Shown here: positions 30,737 through 51,326 of the stretch, one piece after another
How the letters are laid out: every line of letters starts with the position of its first letter
Position numbering within the stretch: the first letter of the stretch is position 1
Sequence record: LR597647
Length of the DNA stretch: 64,000 nucleotides
Direction: 5' to 3' (one strand)
Source of the DNA: Escherichia phage rV5_ev147
The notes under the pieces: generated by a model
The model's input: only the letters and a program-made list of their open reading frames with translations
The model's database searches: none
What the model was told of the DNA's origin: nothing
Translations under genes and position numbers: made by a program

Positions 30737-30952
30737 ATGAAGATAGAGATATTTGGTGGAGCTGACAACACTCGTGGCCTGATTTACCTTGAATTCGATG
30801 AATCATACCTGCCAGAGGTGTTAAATATAGACTCTGTTGCTGAGGCTTTGGGAGTAAACCCTAAAGAACTCCACTCTTGTGCTGAGATCGATGGTTGGGA
30901 AGAGACCATGAACATTGATTTCAGTGAAGTAGAGGATGAACCGCTGGACTGA
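30737..30952 (+). CDS. small acidic protein (family 1-like)
   Basis: RBS agaggag; MKIEIFGG, acidic C-terminus. Confidence 0.45.
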   Translation: MKIEIFGGADNTRGLIYLEFDESYLPEVLNIDSVAEALGVNPKELHSCAEIDGWEETMNIDFSEVEDEPLD

Positions 30953-32423
30953 CACACAATTAGCTGCCCGGCTAAAGTGCTGGAAGCACCTATAACACAT
31001 CTTTCAACTAAATTTCCTACCACCACAATCACTTACCTCCCACACATGACTGTTTGCTTGTTTAGTGAGCAGTCATGCCTTGACATTCTTGCCTATCCTG
31101 ATAAAATTAAGTTCTTCTCTTTTCTTTTACCGAGTAATTCGGGTTTTCTGTTCTCTTCGGTTTGAAGGGGTATAGAGATACACCTGAGTGAACAGGGTGA
31201 ACAACCGAACCATTAGCTATGGCATTAGCATGGCGAAGCGGACGGGTGACGAAAGAGGGGCCGGAGGACACCAGTCACTGCCATATGATATATGGGTGAT
31301 AACCTGAAGAGTCTGAATAAGTGTTTAAGTACCAGTCAGAGGAAAAGGTGAATGGTAGCCGAAGGGGGGGAGGGGGGTTTCTTGTATCTTTAATTTGTAT
31401 ATTATGTATACACTTGTAAACCAATCTAATCTGAATCTGTTTACCACACAAAGCGGATAGAGACAAATATTGCCTATTAAACTTGAATTATTTATAGAAA
31501 ATACCACAACACCCCTTAAGTCTTTGATTTTACACACAAATCCTACAGATATTCAACCTCCATATTTAACATACTTGTAACATATTCCATACTCTACCTG
31601 TCTGATCAATTTCCCCAACTACATTCTCATATTTTCCCTGTCTGTACTACCCCTGCCCCGCCGGGAGTCCCGTCATATCTGGCTTTCCAGCAAATATCAC
31701 ACCCACAAATATCATTGCCTGAAGAGGGTTTCATCCCATAATACCTGCCTTACCTGAAGAGCGCTTCATACACCACGTAAATTTTTTAATTGACCTCCCC
31801 CTGCCCCGCCGGAGAGGTTGGCTTTTCCCACACAGACCTGAAGAGTCAGCCAGAAATATCTGAATAGGCCCAATTCTACCACGATTTTGACCTGACCTAC
31901 AGGGAGGCCCGAAGGGTCTAGCTTTCAGCTAGAGTCCTTGCAGGACCTACAGGAGCGCTGCCAGGCGGACGGAATGGGAATACTTCTCATTCTTATAACA
32001 ATTCTCAAATATCGAGGCAGTGAGAGAAATTAATAGGCCAGGCCGTTCACACAGTGGCACAACATTTGCAACCTATTTTGTGTGGATGAATGAGAATACC
32101 TATCATTGTGAGAACTGTTATCATTACGGGCAATTTAACATAATACCCATTATGCGCACCACTGGCGATACATACAAGGATTGATAACATGAGTTACAGT
32201 TTACGCATATAACAATCATATTTCTTACTATTTGTGTGGGATATAGTTAGCAGCCAATAGATTAGATATTGACCTGCGGACTTCCAACCGTCTAGACGTC
32301 TAAACGCCCACACAACAAGGATTATACATACATTACTGAATGTAAACAGGACCGCAAAAATGCTACCATACCAGTTTGTAAATTTTTCATGCAGCACTTG
32401 ACAAAGAGGAGGAAAACTTGTCT

Positions 32424-32475
32424 GACATAATGGTGACATAACTGACACGATTGACATAATTGACATGCCTGACTG
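32424..32475. repeat. iteron array: 5-6 direct copies of TGACA(T/C) at 9-11 bp spacing
   Basis: copies at 32424, 32435, 32444, 32452, 32461, 32470. Confidence 0.5.
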
Positions 32476-32520
32476 TTCACGCTCTCATTATTCCCGCCCT
32501 TACTATTCACGCCCTTTACT

Positions 32521-32610
32521 GCTTACATTCTTGATAGTCTACATGCTTAATGGTTTACATGACTAATAGTTTACATAGCTAACTGTTTACGCATAAACTG
32601 TTTACACAGA
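32521..32610. repeat. iteron array: about 6 copies of (G)TTTAC(A/G) at 15-16 bp spacing
   Basis: copies near 32523, 32540, 32555, 32570, 32586, 32601. Confidence 0.5.
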
Positions 32611-32618
32611 TATGATAA

Positions 32619-32910
32619 GCCATGCCATTCGTTTGCATGATAACAATAACGATCAACAACAATAAAGACTGAAATGATAACGTTGTTGATTTGACTGACT
32701 AACAATTAACAGGCTAATAATCTATGACATAATATAAAAGCAGGGCAACTATTAGCAGATCTATAGTTGCCTTGCTTGTTATGTCATGATTAACTAAATA
32801 CAAGGCAACTATGATCTGATTAATAGTTTGCAGACAAACTATCACGGGGGTGATGGTTACTGCTTTTATATTATGTCGCGACTCCGTCGCGCCATGCCAT
32901 TCGTTTGCAT
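32619..32910. repeat. 252-bp palindrome-rich segment flanked by perfect 20-bp direct repeats GCCATGCCATTCGTTTGCAT
   Basis: DR at 32619-32638 and 32891-32910; nested inverted repeats inside. Confidence 0.5.
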
Positions 32911-33571
32911 AGTTGCCTTATTGTTACAGATAAAATAATTGTATTGTTAATTATTTCTTATCTTTCTATTAGTCATCTAATGATTCCAGTTAGTATAGTA
33001 ACGTACAGTAAACATTAGACGACTAAAGATTTCTCTGATTATGATAACTTGCCGTGACAATTTCAGACTGTTTACGAAAAATGTTGACACCTGAGCTGAT
33101 TTATGTTATGCAATTTAAACGAATAATTATTTTATGCAGGTATTGACTATTCTGTTATTCTATGGTCGGAATAAATACTTAGCAGGCTATAGAATGGTGA
33201 GCGTACGTAAATTCTGAGATCTGTCGGCTATAGTTATACTCGATTTTTCACGTAGAACACGCTTTTTGGTTTGTGTAAGTGTATGACTTATAAAGATTTT
33301 TAGTTGTTGACAAGATATTGAAGATGTGCATCAGGTTAAATTTTGTGCAATAGCTGCATTACGTGCAATTTTGGAAGGAAAACGGGTAAAAATAGCACCG
33401 CTACCACACAATGAAAGGTTATGCAATAGTTATTTTACATGTATATTTGTACAGTGTGTGGGATTGATGGCTCGTCAATTATTCCACTTGCCAGGTAGGG
33501 CCGTTTATGGTAGGGAGGAAGAGCAGACAAAAAGAAAGGGACCTAAGCCCCTTGATAATTCAGTTAAAAAA

Positions 33572-44984: not shown

Positions 44985-45184
44985 TTGTCGTCCCCTTTCT
45001 TACGGATATAGATGTGAGAGCCTGCCTGTATATAAATTTCTCGACCATCTTCTGCAAAGATATGAAATACACGATCACCTTCATACTCGATACGTGATAT
45101 CTTCATAATGGTCTTTCCACCTGGGATGCGGATCTCGTCCCCCACAGCGATGTTCCATGCAGATTTAAGCTTAAACATCTGCAC
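44981..45184 (-). CDS. hypothetical protein
   Basis: ATGA overlap. Confidence 0.4.
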   Translation of the reverse strand: MQMFKLKSAWNIAVGDEIRIPGGKTIMKISRIEYEGDRVFHIFAEDGREIYIQAGSHIYIRKKGDDK

Positions 45185-45416
45185 CCTCCTTTGGGAACTT
45201 AAACTCTGGCATAGCCATATACGCTACAACAGGGTTGTGATCAAAGTAGAACTGACCGTTAATTATCCCGGTTTTGTCCACATAGTTACCAGATCCTGCA
45301 AGAACAACCTCGCAAGCTCCGAAATCCACATTGCCATCCTCATCAGCCATGGCTACGATATACTTTCCAAGAGGCATGTTTTTAACGCCGTCTACAAATG
45401 TCCACCCTTTGTTCAT
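45171..45416 (-). CDS. hypothetical protein
   Basis: ORF. Confidence 0.45.
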   Translation of the reverse strand: MNKGWTFVDGVKNMPLGKYIVAMADEDGNVDFGACEVVLAGSGNYVDKTGIINGQFYFDHNPVVAYMAMPEFKFPKEGADV

Positions 45417-45436
45417 ACTTTATCTCCTGCATTCTC

Positions 45437-45769
45437 TTAAGGTAACCAGTAAACAATCTCGCCTTTCAGCTTCATGTCGTTTCCAACATAAATTTGCCAG
45501 CCATCCATCTTAGCAGCTGCAGGCCCAAAGTCATCCGCACCCCTTACCTCTTTCCAGGTCCCGTAGTCAGGTTGCCAGATGTAAAATCCACCTTCTTTGT
45601 CCCATGCTCCATACACTACGTTTAACAAGTTTCCCATTGCAACAATAGTGGGCCGTGGGAACAATGCATCTACAGATGCGCCACAATATCTGGTATCTTT
45701 TAAATTGCACTCCCAAAAGATGTCTGCCAGTGTGGCGGCGATAGCTTTACGTCTTTCTAATGTTACCAT
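45437..45769 (-). CDS. hypothetical protein
   Basis: ORF. Confidence 0.45.
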   Translation of the reverse strand: MVTLERRKAIAATLADIFWECNLKDTRYCGASVDALFPRPTIVAMGNLLNVVYGAWDKEGGFYIWQPDYGTWKEVRGADDFGPAAAKMDGWQIYVGNDMKLKGEIVYWLP

Positions 45770-45776
45770 ATCATAC

Positions 45777-45968
45777 TCACTTGTTGTTAATAAGTTCTAA
45801 AACTTTCTGTCTTACCTTATCAATATCTGTTGATTCAAAAACTGTACGATATCCCCAACTTTGCCCATAAGAATGGCTGCAATCACCATAACACCATTGC
45901 TCAATTTGATAGTATTCAAGGAACGGGTGCTGTCTAACTATGATACCGTCCCGGTTAAAAATTACCAT
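45777..45968 (-). CDS. hypothetical protein
   Basis: ORF. Confidence 0.4.
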   Translation of the reverse strand: MVIFNRDGIIVRQHPFLEYYQIEQWCYGDCSHSYGQSWGYRTVFESTDIDKVRQKVLELINNK

Positions 45969-46031
45969 AATACATCACTCTCTGTTAGTTTATGCGTATA
46001 TTATACACTGCAGTTTTCAGATGTCAACCTC

Positions 46032-46226
46032 TTACAGATTGCTCCAGTACAATCGGCATTTACATTTTGGGCAATGAGGTTCTTTTATGTAATAACCGTC
46101 AGTCTTTGGAACACTTTTTGGTGCAGTTTTAATATTGTACCTGGTAAAACATCGGAAGCAGGTTACCTCTCCAATCTGTTGATCGTTGATCCACTCGCCA
46201 GAGTAAAGTTCTTTCTTGTTCCTCAT
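46032..46226 (-). CDS. small zinc-ribbon protein
   Basis: CFRC...CPKCKC. Confidence 0.4.
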   Translation of the reverse strand: MRNKKELYSGEWINDQQIGEVTCFRCFTRYNIKTAPKSVPKTDGYYIKEPHCPKCKCRLYWSNL

Positions 46227-46462
46227 AAGCCCTCCTCAGTCCTCCAGAACAAATACCAACTCTCCGGTAAATGTTTTTGCAAAGTAATAGCCTGAACATT
46301 CATCACTTTTGTACAGCCACCACGTGTCCCAGTCAGGAAGTCGTACAAGGATATGCTAGGCCCATCTATTACTGGGTATTCTTCAAACGGCCCTTGATTA
46401 TCCGATTGCGTGGACACACATATGCAGGTTTTCATGCCAGAATCTCCAGCCAGAAAGCGCAC
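46223..46462 (-). CDS. hypothetical protein
   Basis: ATGA overlap. Confidence 0.4.
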   Translation of the reverse strand: MRFLAGDSGMKTCICVSTQSDNQGPFEEYPVIDGPSISLYDFLTGTRGGCTKVMNVQAITLQKHLPESWYLFWRTEEGL

Positions 46463-46656
46463 GGGAACACTTTGATGATTGAATCTTTACCCGGTTCGGC
46501 AGTTCTTTTTCCGTAGGGTAGGTAGAAATACCCTCCTGCAGATTCGAACACAGCCCCTTCGGTTGTATCTATCACAGCTAGAATTAAGATTTTAGTCTCC
46601 ACAGTGCTCTCCTCTCTTAGTTGTTGTGGAAACTATATCACCTCAGAAGATGGTCG

Positions 46657-47214
46657 TCAACACTTTTTGTACTCTACTACAACCACATCAATATCTGTGG
46701 TTGCAAGATTAATTACATCTTCTACATGTTCCCACTTTAGACCGCCAATACCGCATCCGATTTTAGGAATGTAGAACGGCAATGACACACCTTTGAATAC
46801 CTCGTTGACTCGCTCAAAACCTTTCATGATTGAGAAGTATTCAGCATTGGGCCCTGGGTAGAACTGGGTATACAGGTTGATTCCATATACGACCCTGTTC
46901 TTGGCAAAATGCTCCCAACAAGAAAACATACCCAGCTTGTCTAGATTCCCATAAGCAGTCTCTTTGTCGGCTGCCAGTGCTTGAGGGAACTCACGGGCAA
47001 TATCTTTCGCTATGCCTGCACCCATTGTGTGAAAGCAGTTACAACCGTGGATCATGTGGCCTGACCCTTTCTTGAAAATGGAGATTAGATCTCCCTTTAC
47101 AGTATCAATAATCACGGTATTCCAGCTCCTCTTCTGCAATTTCCAAAAACTCATCCCAACCCTGTGGCATATTTGAGTTGCCGAAGTGGCTTTCGTAGTA
47201 GAGATTTTTACCAC
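46657..47214 (-). CDS. macro-domain protein, TARG1/OARD1- and DarG-like (ADP-ribose processing)
   Basis: KGDLISIF...IHGCNCFHTMGAGIAKDI and IPKIGCGIGGLKWEHVEDVI parallel TARG1 (GDLF..HCISEDCRMGAGIA / MPRIGCGLDRLQWENV); start uncertain. Confidence 0.7.
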   Translation of the reverse strand: MVKISTTKATSATQICHRVGMSFWKLQKRSWNTVIIDTVKGDLISIFKKGSGHMIHGCNCFHTMGAGIAKDIAREFPQALAADKETAYGNLDKLGMFSCWEHFAKNRVVYGINLYTQFYPGPNAEYFSIMKGFERVNEVFKGVSLPFYIPKIGCGIGGLKWEHVEDVINLATTDIDVVVVEYKKC

Positions 47215-47530
47215 TTGGAAGGTAGAAATCTGTTACCTCATAGAATCCACAATCGTCGCACTCACCTTCTTCAAACTTGGCCTCAACCTTAATACCGAGG
47301 AAGGTGAAAAGTTTATGGATATCTTCAGTTTCGAACTCCCAGTGAATGTTGTTTTCCGCATCGGTGTAGAACTGGATCAGCAGACCATTGTCCAGTTTAC
47401 CAAAATACTCTGTGAAGTAACTTCCTTCCCAGAAATCTTTATGACAAATAATATCCATGCGTTTGCCCATAATAATGGTGTGAGCGTTTTGGGCATCGTC
47501 ACGAATCAGTTTTGGCATTTCATAGATCAT
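47105..47530 (-). CDS. hypothetical acidic protein
   Basis: ORF; 3' end overlaps macro ORF. Confidence 0.4.
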   Translation of the reverse strand: MIYEMPKLIRDDAQNAHTIIMGKRMDIICHKDFWEGSYFTEYFGKLDNGLLIQFYTDAENNIHWEFETEDIHKLFTFLGIKVEAKFEEGECDDCGFYEVTDFYLPSGKNLYYESHFGNSNMPQGWDEFLEIAEEELEYRDY

Positions 47531-47598
47531 CTTAGTTCTCCGGGTTCAACAGGTGGTGGTGCTACAGGAAGATCATAAAACATGGCTATCACAGTCTC

Positions 47599-47796
47599 TT
47601 ACACAGGAATTGCTTCAAATAGACCGTTATCTATACCGTCCTTCAGATAGAGATTATATTCTATGTCGGTATCTGTATAAAGGGCAGCATCCAGCATTCT
47701 ATCTGTGAGTCCATCCATCGGGTGGAGAAACCACCACCCACGCCAGTCAAAGTAACAGCCTGGTGCATCTTCTCTTACACGGATTCGATAAATCAT
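47599..47796 (-). CDS. hypothetical protein
   Basis: ORF. Confidence 0.4.
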   Translation of the reverse strand: MIYRIRVREDAPGCYFDWRGWWFLHPMDGLTDRMLDAALYTDTDIEYNLYLKDGIDNGLFEAIPV

Positions 47797-47892
47797 GGGC
47801 AGTGGCCTCCTGTTAGTTATACATCCCAGTTTTCTTCGTTCATCACGTCCTCCCGTTCTATGAAGTTATAATTGCACACCTTTCAACTTGTG

Positions 47893-48309
47893 TCAACAGA
47901 AAACTTCAACAAATTCTTCCACAGTTTTAATGTCGTGGGAAAAAGGTTTACGGCTATAACGGGCAATAGCACTATCAACCACCGCCCGGTACTCCAAATC
48001 TTCAGAATATTTCATGAAGCATTGCAGCGTCTCTGGGCAGATAGCTAAATAGCTCCACCACCCCTCTTCAGATTGGTAGTCGAATCCCATACTCTCCAAC
48101 CATGAAGCATATACGCCTGCACCTTCAAGCCAGTGAGTATTTTCATCCAGAAACTTGTTAATAGACATGTGAGCTTCTAAGCATTTATCCAGCTCTTTTC
48201 CGTTAACCAGCCATGCACTGACTGTGGCGCATCCGAGGTCTACAGATTGAGTTGACAGGTTGTATTGGTCATAGTTCTCAGGTTTAACAATGATATCTTC
48301 TAATGTCAT
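47893..48309 (-). CDS. hypothetical acidic protein
   Basis: ORF. Confidence 0.45.
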   Translation of the reverse strand: MTLEDIIVKPENYDQYNLSTQSVDLGCATVSAWLVNGKELDKCLEAHMSINKFLDENTHWLEGAGVYASWLESMGFDYQSEEGWWSYLAICPETLQCFMKYSEDLEYRAVVDSAIARYSRKPFSHDIKTVEEFVEVFC

Positions 48310-48371
48310 TTTTCAGATCTCCTTATACAAAAATGCCCCACCCTTTCGGGCAGGGCTATGTTAACTAGATG

Positions 48372-49598
48372 TTAGAATGGGATGTCATCATCAAAGGCGT
48401 ACTGTGCTGGATTCTGATCCATCGGGTCATCTTCCTCGTCATTTACAGGAGGAGCGTCTACAGTGTTTTGCTGTGGAGCTGCTTCCTGTTTGGCAGCTTG
48501 AGGTTCTTGATGGTCAGTGGACTCAGCACCGTTCTTGATCCAATCGTACAACGGCTCAGCCAGATTAGTCAAGACATCTTTTGCTTCTGCAGTAATTGCC
48601 GCTGCAAAATCATCAACTTTCGTTTTCTTGTCAATACGGCGACAAGCGTTCAACACCGCATTACCGACACTGGCACCTACTTCATCTTCAGTTCGGTTGG
48701 TGGCTTGAGCATACTCTTTCTTAAGCTCAATGGTGACTACGTGCAGTGTTTTAGCCACGCTTAGTGGGTCATCCACTTTAAACCCGCGATCCAGGATGAT
48801 CTGCAAAGCATTGATGCTATGCCCCGTCTCTACACCAATAGGGTCGTAAGAGGATTTACGCTTGCCACCAGAGCCTTGAGTGCCGTTCTCTGCCTTAGGT
48901 GGATAGGCTTTGAAACCACTGATAATGTTTCCGGTGTCTTTGTCAACAATGGCTGCAACACGACCACCTACTACCAGGTCTTTAAGCTGCTCATCAGTGA
49001 CAACCATAGCACCTTCGCCAATCTTGTGGTCATTAACAGTAACCACGTTGCCAACAATCTGAGTCACATCACCATAGATGCGTAAAACGTCCTGATTGGC
49101 ATTCTGCTGAGGTTTCTGCTTCTGGCCTTGTGATTGTGCACCTTGTTGCTGTTTTTGCTGTTGAGTCGCTGCTGGGGCCTCTCCTGCACCCAGCTTAACC
49201 ATTTTAGCCAGTGATCCTTTATAATAGGTCTTACCGTTATGCTCGTTTGCCTTCAAAGGGATATTTACGATCCATCCCGGCGTTACGGTTTCCCACTTGT
49301 CATCAATTTTAACAGAGACAGAGTCTTGATGACCAGGTTTAAGCAGCTTATCACCCATACTGATCCAAACTTCTTCACCACCTTGAAGCAGGTTATCAGA
49401 GGAATCCAGTTCAGAAATCAGTAAAGAGATGGTGTGGCTGGATTCAATTTTCTTACCTTGCCACACAGTGGTTTTAATACCTGTTGTAGGATCAGCACCT
49501 TTGATAGGTTTGATGCTGACACGTTTAATCATGCCGTGAGCCAGTAAAACAGTTTCACGCGGATTCATCGGGTTAGCAAATTGTTGAATAACGCTCAT
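48372..49598 (-). CDS. ssDNA-binding protein-like, with E. coli SSB-type C-terminal tail
   Basis: C-terminus ...YAFDDDIPF (E. coli SSB ends ...MDFDDDIPF); Q/G-rich low-complexity linker; next to replication genes. Confidence 0.55.
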   Translation of the reverse strand: MSVIQQFANPMNPRETVLLAHGMIKRVSIKPIKGADPTTGIKTTVWQGKKIESSHTISLLISELDSSDNLLQGGEEVWISMGDKLLKPGHQDSVSVKIDDKWETVTPGWIVNIPLKANEHNGKTYYKGSLAKMVKLGAGEAPAATQQQKQQQGAQSQGQKQKPQQNANQDVLRIYGDVTQIVGNVVTVNDHKIGEGAMVVTDEQLKDLVVGGRVAAIVDKDTGNIISGFKAYPPKAENGTQGSGGKRKSSYDPIGVETGHSINALQIILDRGFKVDDPLSVAKTLHVVTIELKKEYAQATNRTEDEVGASVGNAVLNACRRIDKKTKVDDFAAAITAEAKDVLTNLAEPLYDWIKNGAESTDHQEPQAAKQEAAPQQNTVDAPPVNDEEDDPMDQNPAQYAFDDDIPF

Positions 49599-51263: not shown

Positions 51264-51326
51264 TGCTGTGGTCCCCTTTCGTTTTGATAGGGCCATTATA
51301 GTAGGCCCTATCACTGTTGTCAAGTA

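What the first reader, a model, noticed from the sequence alone, without database searches (positions are those of the whole stretch)
46657..47214. Phage-encoded TARG1/DarG-like macro domain: candidate reverser of ADP-ribosylation defence
The ORF carries the two hallmark segments of the TARG1/OARD1 macro subfamily (GDL..., HGCNCFHTMGAGIAKDI, IPKIGCGIGGLKWEHV). This subfamily includes the DarG antitoxin macro domain, which removes ADP-ribose from DNA. A phage copy among early genes suggests an anti-defence enzyme against DarT-like or other ADP-ribosylating systems. The small neighbouring ORFs (46032-46462, 47105-47530) may belong to the same module.
Basis: partly seen in the sequence, partly recalled or inferred. 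Interest (0 to 1): 0.7.

Follow-up and report, generated by a model that had tools for sequence, protein, structure and literature searches.

The report
Phage macrodomain, T4 Tk.4/AdfM ortholog
This is a small ADP-ribose-removing (macrodomain) gene of an rV5-like E. coli phage, the counterpart of phage T4 gene tk.4 (AdfM), which was recently shown to protect T4 from the DarTG2 defence system; it is a real gene but already annotated and ordinary.

Summary
The window is the last 64 kb of Escherichia phage rV5_ev156 (Vequintavirus). The ORF is real, but the gene is 46657..47115 (-), 152 aa with a GTG start, not 46657..47214. It is a single-domain macrodomain of the TARG1/ALC1-like class: Pfam Macro, AlphaFold pLDDT 96.5, and top Foldseek hits TARG1, Poa1p, DarG and SCO6735. 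It is 39% identical over its full length to T2/T4 Tk.4. Public records already call it "tk.4 / macro domain / Poa1p-like phosphatase". A 2025 preprint named T4 tk.4 AdfM because its deletion sensitises T4 to DarTG2. PhiKZ gp104, a different macrodomain lineage, removes DarT2-made ADP-ribose from DNA in vitro. Two details differ. The TARG1 Lys84/Asp125 dyad is absent; an invariant Gln84 and a Gly124 take their places. Gln at this position matches Gln85 of SCO6735, an active thymidine-ADP-ribose DNA hydrolase. The small neighbouring ORFs do not travel with the macro gene outside Vequintaviruses, so no module is supported. The near-identical Bas54 ortholog is dispensable in E. coli K-12, as expected for an accessory counter-defence gene. 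No direct assay exists for the rV5-type protein.

The parts
46657..47115 (-). Macrodomain gene (152 aa; rV5 gp204 / 'tk.4'; ortholog of T4 Tk.4 = AdfM). Key residues: D9 (adenine-contacting 'KGD'), H23-G24-C25-N26 plus M31-G32-A33-G34 (loop 1), N80-x-Y82-T83-Q84 (Gln at the TARG1 Lys84 / SCO6735 Gln85 position), P117-x-I119-G120-x-G122 (diphosphate-binding loop).
47116..47135 (-). Ribosome-binding region: AAGAGGAG ends 10 nt upstream of the GTG start. It lies inside the 3' end of the upstream ORF, whose stop codon overlaps the macro start (11-nt overlap, 47105-47115).
   Evidence: read directly from the sequence
47105..47530 (-). Upstream ORF (141 aa; rV5 gp205; phrog_8157, no Pfam hit), co-oriented and overlapping the macro gene. 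It is not a conserved partner: within 6 kb of a macro homolog it occurs only in Vequintavirus-like loci, and in L005 it sits in a different position.
46032..46602 (-). Three small downstream ORFs: 46432-46602 (56 aa, phrog_15268); 46223-46435 (70 aa, no family, absent from Bas54 and many Vequintaviruses); 46032-46226 (64 aa, Pfam Phage_zn_bind_2). They are listed because the finding named them. There is no evidence that they belong with the macro gene.
51295..51323 (-). Perfect sigma-70 consensus promoter (TTGACA-17-TATAAT) upstream of the co-oriented block of small genes that includes the macro gene. It corresponds to promoter P220 annotated in rV5. A terminator-like hairpin at 48335-48356 and weaker promoter-like sites at 47868-47896 and 47653-47681 lie in between, so the promoter that actually serves the macro gene is not settled.

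Best explanation
The gene encodes a stand-alone, single-domain macrodomain ADP-ribosyl hydrolase of the TARG1/ALC1-like class. It is the Vequintavirus ortholog of T4 Tk.4 (AdfM). It lies in a block of small co-oriented genes behind host-type sigma-70 promoters, which fits early expression.

Proposed role: it acts as an orphan 'antitoxin'. When a DarT2-type toxin ADP-ribosylates thymidines in single-stranded phage DNA, the enzyme binds the ADP-ribose and hydrolyses the ribose-thymine bond. This restores replicable DNA and lets the phage grow on DarTG2-carrying E. coli.

Proposed chemistry: lysine-independent, as in SCO6735. An invariant Gln84 is held by Asn26 and positions the distal ribose, and an activated water does the cleavage. 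This differs from the Lys-based route of TARG1 and DarG.

What is shown here: fold, family, residue equivalences, orthology to Tk.4, and dispensability of the Bas54 ortholog. What is inferred: enzymatic activity, the DNA-thymidine substrate, anti-DarTG2 function in rV5-type phages, and expression timing.
For: Family and fold:
- Pfam Macro above the gathering score.
- AF2 model with pLDDT 96.5 and pTM 0.91.
- Foldseek PDB top hits are TARG1 (E 4e-10), Poa1p, T. aquaticus and M. tuberculosis DarG macrodomains, BT1257 and SCO6735, all at probability 1.0.
- The PADLOC DarG model scores 46.5 bits, E 8.5e-13, over its macro part only (positions 3-143 of 329).

Orthology to Tk.4:
- 39% identity and 67% positives over residues 1-150 with T2 Tk.4, E 4e-44; tblastn to T4 gives 1e-33.
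- Shared motifs: HGCNCFHTMG, NLYTQ and P-x-IG-x-GIG.

Published function of relatives:
- T4 tk.4 was the only significant hit in a transposon screen on DarTG2, and a clean knockout is DarTG2-sensitive (10.1101/2025.11.20.689424).
- PhiKZ gp104 (AdfM) removes DarT2-made ADP-ribose from DNA in vitro, and its N23A mutant is impaired (PMC13309987).

Active site:
- hhalign places Q84 on TARG1 K84 and on SCO6735 Q85. N26 aligns with PhiKZ gp104 N23; in the SCO6735 alignment it also lines up with the SCO6735 residue I numbered as N27. G120 and G122 likewise line up with SCO6735 G126 and G128.
- Q85A abolishes SCO6735 activity on thymidine-ADP-ribose DNA (PMC9411070).
- Q84, N26, G120 and G122 are invariant in 89 family members. 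Q84 is present in 84 of 85 loci.

Consistency checks:
- The Bas54 ortholog (150/152 identical) tolerates insertions at 31 of 31 TA sites in K-12.
- DarTG2-sensitive T5 has no family member: best hmmsearch hit 10.7 bits, against 207 and 165 bits for the controls (T5 sensitivity).
Against: - No experiment exists on the rV5-type protein. At 39% identity to T4 Tk.4, substrate specificity could differ.
- For T4 Tk.4 itself only the genetic phenotype is published; the enzymatic mechanism is stated there as likely, not shown.
- The DarG/TARG1 catalytic lysine is absent.
- The SCO6735 features thought to aid DNA processing are also absent: the five-residue longer mobile loop with Lys89/Lys93, and Val25. 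Here there is a 5-residue gap and Gly24.
- The family is spread over more than 2,800 phage genomes with many hosts. That is wider than one might expect if DarT2 were the only target.
Confidence: 0.68

Rival explanations
1. It is an ADP-ribose metabolite-processing enzyme, as the legacy 'phosphatase / Poa1p-like' annotation says. It would be an ADP-ribose-1''-phosphate phosphatase or an O-acetyl-ADP-ribose deacetylase, cleaning up NAD-derived by-products during infection rather than repairing DNA.
For: - Poa1p structures are among the top sequence and fold matches.
- PHROG 335 and several GenBank records carry the name 'phosphatase'.
- JGI names homologs 'O-acetyl-ADP-ribose deacetylase'.
- By my own numbering of the Poa1p alignment, His23 and Thr30 fall where the Poa1p mutants H23A and S30A of PDB entries 6lfs and 6lft lie.
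- Some Vibrio phage homologs sit next to a ribose-phosphate pyrophosphokinase-like gene.
Against: - The 'phosphatase' name is transferred annotation, not an assay.
- phmmer aligns Poa1p only in two short stretches, whereas TARG1, SCO6735 and DarG align end to end.
- The only phenotype known for a family member is DarTG2 sensitivity of T4 delta-tk.4.
- Thymidine-ADP-ribose reversal is described as a unifying activity of the ALC1-like class (PMC9411070).
Confidence: 0.1
2. It reverses or intercepts a different ADP-ribose-based process. Candidates are protein or RNA ADP-ribosylation by other host defence transferases, by-products of phage or host ADP-ribosyltransferases, or ADP-ribose-derived immune signals. 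DarT2 would be at most one of several targets.
For: - SCO6735 and TARG1, which share the fold, also act on protein substrates; SCO6735 shares the Gln.
- The family is very widespread, in 2,826 of 50,697 phage records across many host genera.
- Authors in the field expect Adf-type factors to counter other DNA- or RNA-ADP-ribosylating defences that are still unknown (PMC11825919).
Against: - No data for any Tk.4-family member on non-DNA substrates.
- In the T4 screens described, tk.4 scored only with DarTG2.
- No ADP-ribosyltransferase or signalling-related gene is conserved next to the macro gene.
Confidence: 0.17
3. It neutralises DarT mainly by binding the toxin (interaction-inhibition) or by sequestering ADP-ribosylated DNA, with little or no catalysis.
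For: - Catalytically dead SCO6735, DarG and TARG1 still inhibit DarT in vitro, SCO6735 most strongly (PMC9411070).
- ICP1 AdfB works by binding DarT (PMC11481870).
- The canonical catalytic Lys is missing here.
Against: - All residues shown by mutagenesis to be needed for catalysis in SCO6735 or PhiKZ AdfM (Asn, Gln, the loop glycines) are invariant across the family. That argues for selection on enzymatic activity.
- The DarT-binding C-terminal domain of DarG is absent: the protein is 152 aa, and the PADLOC DarG model is matched only over positions 3-143 of 329.
Confidence: 0.05

Closest known systems
T4/T2 Tk.4 = AdfM (anti-DarT factor Macrodomain), Tevenvirinae (bioRxiv 10.1101/2025.11.20.689424)
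   Same: - Same family and same architecture: a single macrodomain of about 152-155 aa that aligns from residue 1 to the end at 39% identity.
- Same invariant motifs (HGCNCFHTMG, NLYTQ, PxIGxGIG), including Gln at the catalytic-lysine position.
- Non-essential in the laboratory host.
- Located among small early-type genes.
   Different: - Different phage family (Vequintavirinae versus Straboviridae) and different gene neighbours: vs and tk.3 in T-even phages, gp205 and gp203 here.
- 61% of residues differ.
- The anti-DarTG2 phenotype has been shown only for T4.
PhiKZ gp104 AdfM (chimallivirus DarG2-like macrodomain; PMC13309987)
   Same: - A phage-encoded stand-alone macrodomain of the same structural class.
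- The conserved Asn (N23 in gp104, N26 here) and the Gly-rich diphosphate loop are shared.
- Proposed role identical: removal of DarT2-made ADP-ribose from DNA.
   Different: - A separate lineage: hhalign gives only 22% identity over a partial alignment.
- gp104 keeps the DarG-type catalytic Lys (PTKDNW), where the rV5/T4 family has Gln (YTQF).
- gp104 is imported into a phage nucleus, which rV5-type phages do not build.
SCO6735 (Streptomyces coelicolor ALC1-like macrodomain; PDB 5E3B; PMC9411070)
   Same: - Best sequence match among solved structures (phmmer 7e-6; hhalign E 1e-14, 28% identity).
- Gln at the TARG1-Lys84 position. No Asp125 equivalent. The conserved Asn and loop glycines are present.
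- SCO6735 hydrolyses thymidine-linked ADP-ribose on DNA and rescues DarT toxicity.
   Different: - The rV5 protein lacks the five-residue longer 'mobile loop' with Lys89/Lys93 and has Gly24 where SCO6735 has Val25. Both are features said to define the SCO6735 subclass.
- SCO6735 is a bacterial, DNA-damage-inducible chromosomal gene. It is strongly basic (pI 9.9 versus 6.5).
DarG2 antitoxin of DarTG2 toxin-antitoxin systems (PDB 5M31, 5M3E, 5M3I, 7OMU)
   Same: - Macrodomain fold and ADP-ribose-binding loops.
- The PADLOC DarG model is matched at 46.5 bits over its macro part.
- Same proposed substrate.
   Different: - No C-terminal DarT-binding domain and no adjacent darT gene.
- The catalytic Lys80 is replaced by Gln.
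Human TARG1/OARD1 (PDB 4J5R, 4J5S)
   Same: Top Foldseek hit (TM 0.75-0.81). The alignment is end to end and the size is the same (152 aa).
   Different: The Lys84/Asp125 catalytic dyad is absent (Gln84/Gly124). TARG1 is a eukaryotic protein and DNA de-ADP-ribosylase.

Membership tests
Macro domain superfamily (Pfam PF01661) | Profile match above the curated threshold and a macro alpha/beta/alpha fold | tested here: met
   26.4 bits against a cut-off of 22. AF2 pLDDT 96.5. 184 PDB macrodomain chains with Foldseek E <= 1e-3.
TARG1/ALC1-like macrodomain class | Closest sequence and structure relatives are TARG1, DarG, SCO6735, BT1257 and Poa1p rather than MacroD- or PARG-type | tested here: met
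   All significant PDB phmmer hits are of this class. Foldseek ranks 1-23 are TARG1, Poa1p, DarG, BT1257 (including designed hydrolase chains of similar fold) and SCO6735; viral MacroD-type domains follow with weaker scores.
TARG1 (OARD1) subfamily | Catalytic dyad Lys84 / Asp125 | tested here: not met
   hhalign puts Gln84 on Lys84 and Gly124 on Asp125. Across the family, position 84 is Gln in 84 of 85 loci and position 124 is Ala or Gly.
DarG2 antitoxin | Catalytic Lys80 in the macrodomain | tested here: not met
   phmmer alignment to M. tuberculosis DarG aligns YTQF with PTKK. The TARG1 alignment agrees, and PMC9411070 states that TARG1 Lys84 is equivalent to DarG Lys80.
DarG2 antitoxin | C-terminal DarT-binding domain and an adjacent darT toxin gene | tested here: not met
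   The protein is 152 aa, macro domain only. The PADLOC DarG model is matched over positions 3-143 of 329. Flanking ORFs have no Pfam or PADLOC toxin match.
Tk.4 / AdfM(T4) phage macrodomain family | Full-length homology to T4/T2 Tk.4 with shared invariant motifs and single-domain architecture | tested here: met
   BLASTP 39% identity over residues 1-150, E 4e-44. The family profile scores the window ORF at 207 bits and T2 Tk.4 at 165 bits. Invariant residues: G24 N26 C27 M31 G34 A36 D50 N80 Y82 T83 Q84 P117 G120 G122. PHROG 335 at 8e-60.
Tk.4 / AdfM(T4) phage macrodomain family | Confers resistance to DarTG2 (the functional definition of an Adf) | not testable with these tools
   Shown only for T4 delta-tk.4. 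The Bas54 ortholog was assayed only on hosts without DarTG2, where it is non-essential.
SCO6735 subclass of ALC1-like macrodomains | Gln at the catalytic-lysine position (Gln85) | tested here: met
   hhalign aligns NLYTQ with NMIGQ, so Gln84 falls on Gln85 (the numbering offset was checked against the residues named).
SCO6735 subclass of ALC1-like macrodomains | Mobile loop five residues longer, carrying Lys89/Lys93, and Val/Ile25 | tested here: not met
   The hhalign alignment has a 5-residue gap in the rV5 family opposite SCO6735 'MKTGS'. Position 24 is an invariant Gly.
Poa1p (ADP-ribose 1''-phosphate phosphatase) | Appr-1''-p phosphatase activity and its active-site residues | tested here: inconclusive
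   Fold match at TM 0.70. Sequence alignment covers only two short stretches. A His and a Thr fall where Poa1p His23 and Ser30 lie by my own numbering. The Poa1p structure paper is not in the library and the activity cannot be tested here.

The most novel reading that the evidence does not exclude
The Tk.4-type phage macrodomains, including this one, may form a mechanistically distinct subgroup. It combines an invariant Gln at the catalytic position with a short loop and a Gly at position 24, so it is neither DarG/TARG1-type nor SCO6735-type. Its substrate range could be broader than thymidine-ADP-ribose DNA, for example RNA or protein ADP-ribosylation made by other, partly unknown defence transferases. 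That would make it a general eraser of ADP-ribosylation-based immunity carried by thousands of phages.
Probability: 0.15. Interest if true: 0.5.

Novelty: new member of a known kind. Interest (0 to 1): 0.2.

Why it matters
The finding extends the AdfM-type counter-defence from T-even and chimallivirus phages to Vequintaviruses. These are broad-host-range E. coli phages of interest for therapy and typing, so the gene predicts that they should plate on DarTG2-carrying strains.

The practical value is mainly better annotation. The 'phosphatase / hypothetical protein' label on this gene, and on homologs in more than 2,800 phage records, can be replaced by 'Tk.4/AdfM-like macrodomain, putative DNA ADP-ribosylglycohydrolase'.

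The Gln-for-Lys active site shared with SCO6735 is a modest mechanistic point. I did not see it raised in the passages I read of the two AdfM papers.

Tried and rejected
- **Neighbour module.** tblastn of 11 flanking rV5 proteins against 80 IMG/VR loci carrying macro homologs (plus or minus 6 kb) found the flanking ORFs only in two Vequintavirus-like loci. In one of these (L005) the gp205 homolog sits elsewhere.
- **Zn-ribbon ORF 46032-46226.** It has weak hits (about 45% identity over 42 aa) 1-1.5 kb downstream of the macro gene in three further loci. The rV5 record notes similarity to the RB49 gene with the accession next to RB49 Tk.4. This is too weak and sporadic to call a partner.
- **De novo clustering of neighbours.** Clustering all ORFs within 3 kb of the macro gene gave no family present in more than 20 of 80 loci. 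I take the largest clusters to be T4-like synteny genes, without having identified them.
- **gp205 homologs.** They occur in only 176 phage records, against 2,826 for the macro gene.
- **The longer ORF start (47214, or the ATG at 47154).** Rejected in favour of the GTG at 47115.
- **Net charge as a hint of DNA binding.** Uninformative: the biochemically validated PhiKZ AdfM is acidic too.
- **Literature on plating.** I looked for data on Vequintavirus plating on DarTG2 and found none. LeRoux et al. 2022 is not held, nor is the Poa1p structure paper.
- **RNA genes.** Rfam and tRNA scans of the window found nothing.

Full report
**Source of the window and the gene model**

Megablast of 45000-49000 gives a 100% match to Escherichia phage rV5_ev156 (LR694165.1, Vequintavirus). 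It gives 92-97% matches to more than 100 rV5-like phages. Window position equals record position minus 72,385.

The gene is shorter, however. GenBank and RefSeq annotate 459 nt in rV5_ev156, rV5 (gp204) and Bas54, which corresponds to window 46657..47115. That start is a GTG preceded by AAGAGGAG 10 nt upstream. From it the protein aligns residue 1 to residue 1 with T2 Tk.4. The start overlaps the stop of the upstream ORF (47105-47530) by 11 nt.

**Family and fold**

- The 152-aa protein passes the Pfam Macro gathering score.
- It matches PHROG 335 at 8e-60.
- It matches the macro part only (positions 3-143 of 329) of the PADLOC DarG model, at 46.5 bits.
- Among solved structures, phmmer finds SCO6735 (7e-6), M. 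tuberculosis DarG macrodomain (4e-5), yeast Poa1p, human TARG1 and BT1257.
- An AlphaFold2 model built on an 89-sequence family alignment is very confident (pLDDT 96.5, pTM 0.91).
- Its best Foldseek matches in the PDB are TARG1 (E 4e-10, TM 0.75-0.81), Poa1p, T. aquaticus and M. tuberculosis DarG, BT1257, a DarTG fusion and SCO6735.

**Closest characterised relative**

Public records already label the gene 'tk.4 phosphatase', 'macro domain protein' or 'Poa1p-like'. The protein is 39% identical (67% positives) over its full length to T2 Tk.4 (E 4e-44). tblastn finds homologs in 2,826 of 50,697 phage records.

A November 2025 preprint (10.1101/2025.11.20.689424) reports three things:
- tk.4 was the single significant hit when a T4 transposon library was grown on DarTG2.
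- A clean knockout sensitises T4 to DarTG2.
- The protein resembles the DarG macrodomain, and the authors named it AdfM.

Independently, chimallivirus PhiKZ gp104 was also named AdfM. It removes DarT2-made ADP-ribose from DNA in vitro and rescues DarT2 toxicity (PMC13309987). The 'candidate reverser of an ADP-ribosylation defence' idea is thus the published function of this protein's family.

**Active site**

They are not.
- Profile-sequence alignment puts Gln84 on TARG1 Lys84 and Gly124 on Asp125.
- The same Gln aligns with Gln85 of SCO6735. I checked the chain-to-paper numbering offset against residues named in the SCO6735 paper.
- Gln84 is invariant in the 89-sequence alignment, together with Asn26, Asn80, Tyr82, Thr83, Gly120 and Gly122.
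- Gln84 is present in 84 of 85 phage loci.

According to PMC9411070:
- SCO6735 lacks the Lys/Asp residues yet is the most active thymidine-ADP-ribose DNA hydrolase of the three enzymes tested.
- Q85A abolishes its activity.
- Asn27 locks the Gln rotamer.
- Gln at this position distinguishes SCO6735/ALC1 homologs from TARG1/DarG homologs.

The rV5/T4 family does not have the SCO6735-specific longer mobile loop; hhalign shows a 5-residue gap. It has an invariant Gly where SCO6735 has Val25. PhiKZ gp104 keeps the DarG-type Lys (PTKDNW) and aligns only partially with this family (22% identity). The two proteins called 'AdfM' are therefore different lineages of the same class.

**Genomic context**

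The gene lies in a long minus-strand block of small ORFs, from 33.6 kb to the end of the window. Perfect sigma-70 consensus promoters lie at 51323-51295 and 46027-46000. They correspond to promoters annotated in rV5 and fit an early, host-RNA-polymerase-transcribed region. Expression timing is an inference.

Several tests argue against a module:
- In 80 IMG/VR loci with macro homologs, these neighbours recur only in two Vequintavirus-like loci. In one of them the gp205 homolog has moved.
- ORF 46223-46435 is missing from Bas54.
- Unbiased clustering of all ORFs within 3 kb found no family in more than 20 of 80 loci, which I attribute to synteny among related T4-like phages.

The macro gene behaves as a stand-alone gene, and the 'module' suggestion is not supported.

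**Consistency checks**

- The Bas54 ortholog (bas54_0092, 150/152 identical) tolerated transposon insertions at 31 of 31 TA sites and is classed non-essential in E. coli K-12. This is expected for an accessory counter-defence gene.
- Phage T5 is strongly restricted by DarTG2. It has no Tk.4-family ORF: the best profile hit is 10.7 bits, against 207 and 165 bits for the rV5 and T2 controls.
- T2 and T4 carry the gene and are DarTG2-resistant.
- Net charge is not informative.

**Verdict**

What remains untested is the activity and DarTG2 phenotype of the rV5-type protein itself, and the substrate range of the Gln-type phage family.

Rivals cannot be excluded computationally but have less support. 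They are Poa1p-like metabolite phosphatase activity, other ADP-ribosylated substrates, and inhibition by binding.

The gene is a new, untested member of a known and already annotated kind, and interest is low.

Noticed in passing
window 30952-33571: An ORF-poor stretch of about 2.6 kb at the switch from plus-strand to minus-strand genes. It holds a repeated 14-15-nt motif ACTGTTTACGCATA (32196, 32582, 32597, 33067), an exact 20-nt direct repeat (32619, 32891), an 18-nt perfect inverted repeat (32726/32860) and a duplicated GC-rich 18-mer (31647, 31795). The stretch is 91-96% conserved in Vequintaviruses and has no tRNA or Rfam match. It may be an origin or a regulatory region.
   Followed up: partly
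window 48310-48371, compared with rV5 NC_011041 (L001 7375-7998) and Bas54 (L085 3196-3819): rV5 and Bas54 carry a 624-nt homing-endonuclease gene (gp208 / bas54_0088) between the gp207 and gp209 homologs. This window has only a 62-nt gap there, with a terminator-like hairpin at 48335-48356. This is a presence/absence polymorphism of a mobile endonuclease.
   Followed up: no
window 46223-46435: This 70-aa ORF has no PHROG or Pfam family. It is absent from Bas54 and apparently from the many Vequintaviruses that cover only about 95% of the 4-kb query. It is a small variable insertion three genes downstream of the macro gene.
   Followed up: partly
window 46032-46226; loci L013-L015; rV5 note in L001: The Phage_zn_bind_2 Zn-ribbon protein (64 aa) has weak homologs 1-1.5 kb downstream of the macro gene in three non-Vequintavirus loci. 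The rV5 record notes similarity to the RB49 gene whose accession is adjacent to that of RB49 Tk.4. T2 has a different 'Phage_zn_bind' ORF two genes downstream of tk.4. This may be coincidental, because such small Zn-ribbon ORFs are common in these regions.
   Followed up: partly
Vibrio phage records MT448617.1 (107422-107832) and MW398869.1 (15646-16074): In these Vibrio phages the macro homolog lies next to, or overlaps, an annotated 'ribose-phosphate pyrophosphokinase' gene. This hints at a link to ADP-ribose/NAD salvage in some lineages.
   Followed up: no
phage T5 NC_005859, L088 6447-8094: T5 encodes a Sir2-family protein (T5.102), and a second ORF (T5.105) is also annotated 'Sir2'. T5.105 looks unrelated to Sir2 by eye, and T5 has no Tk.4-family macrodomain. 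The T5.105 annotation may be wrong.
   Followed up: no
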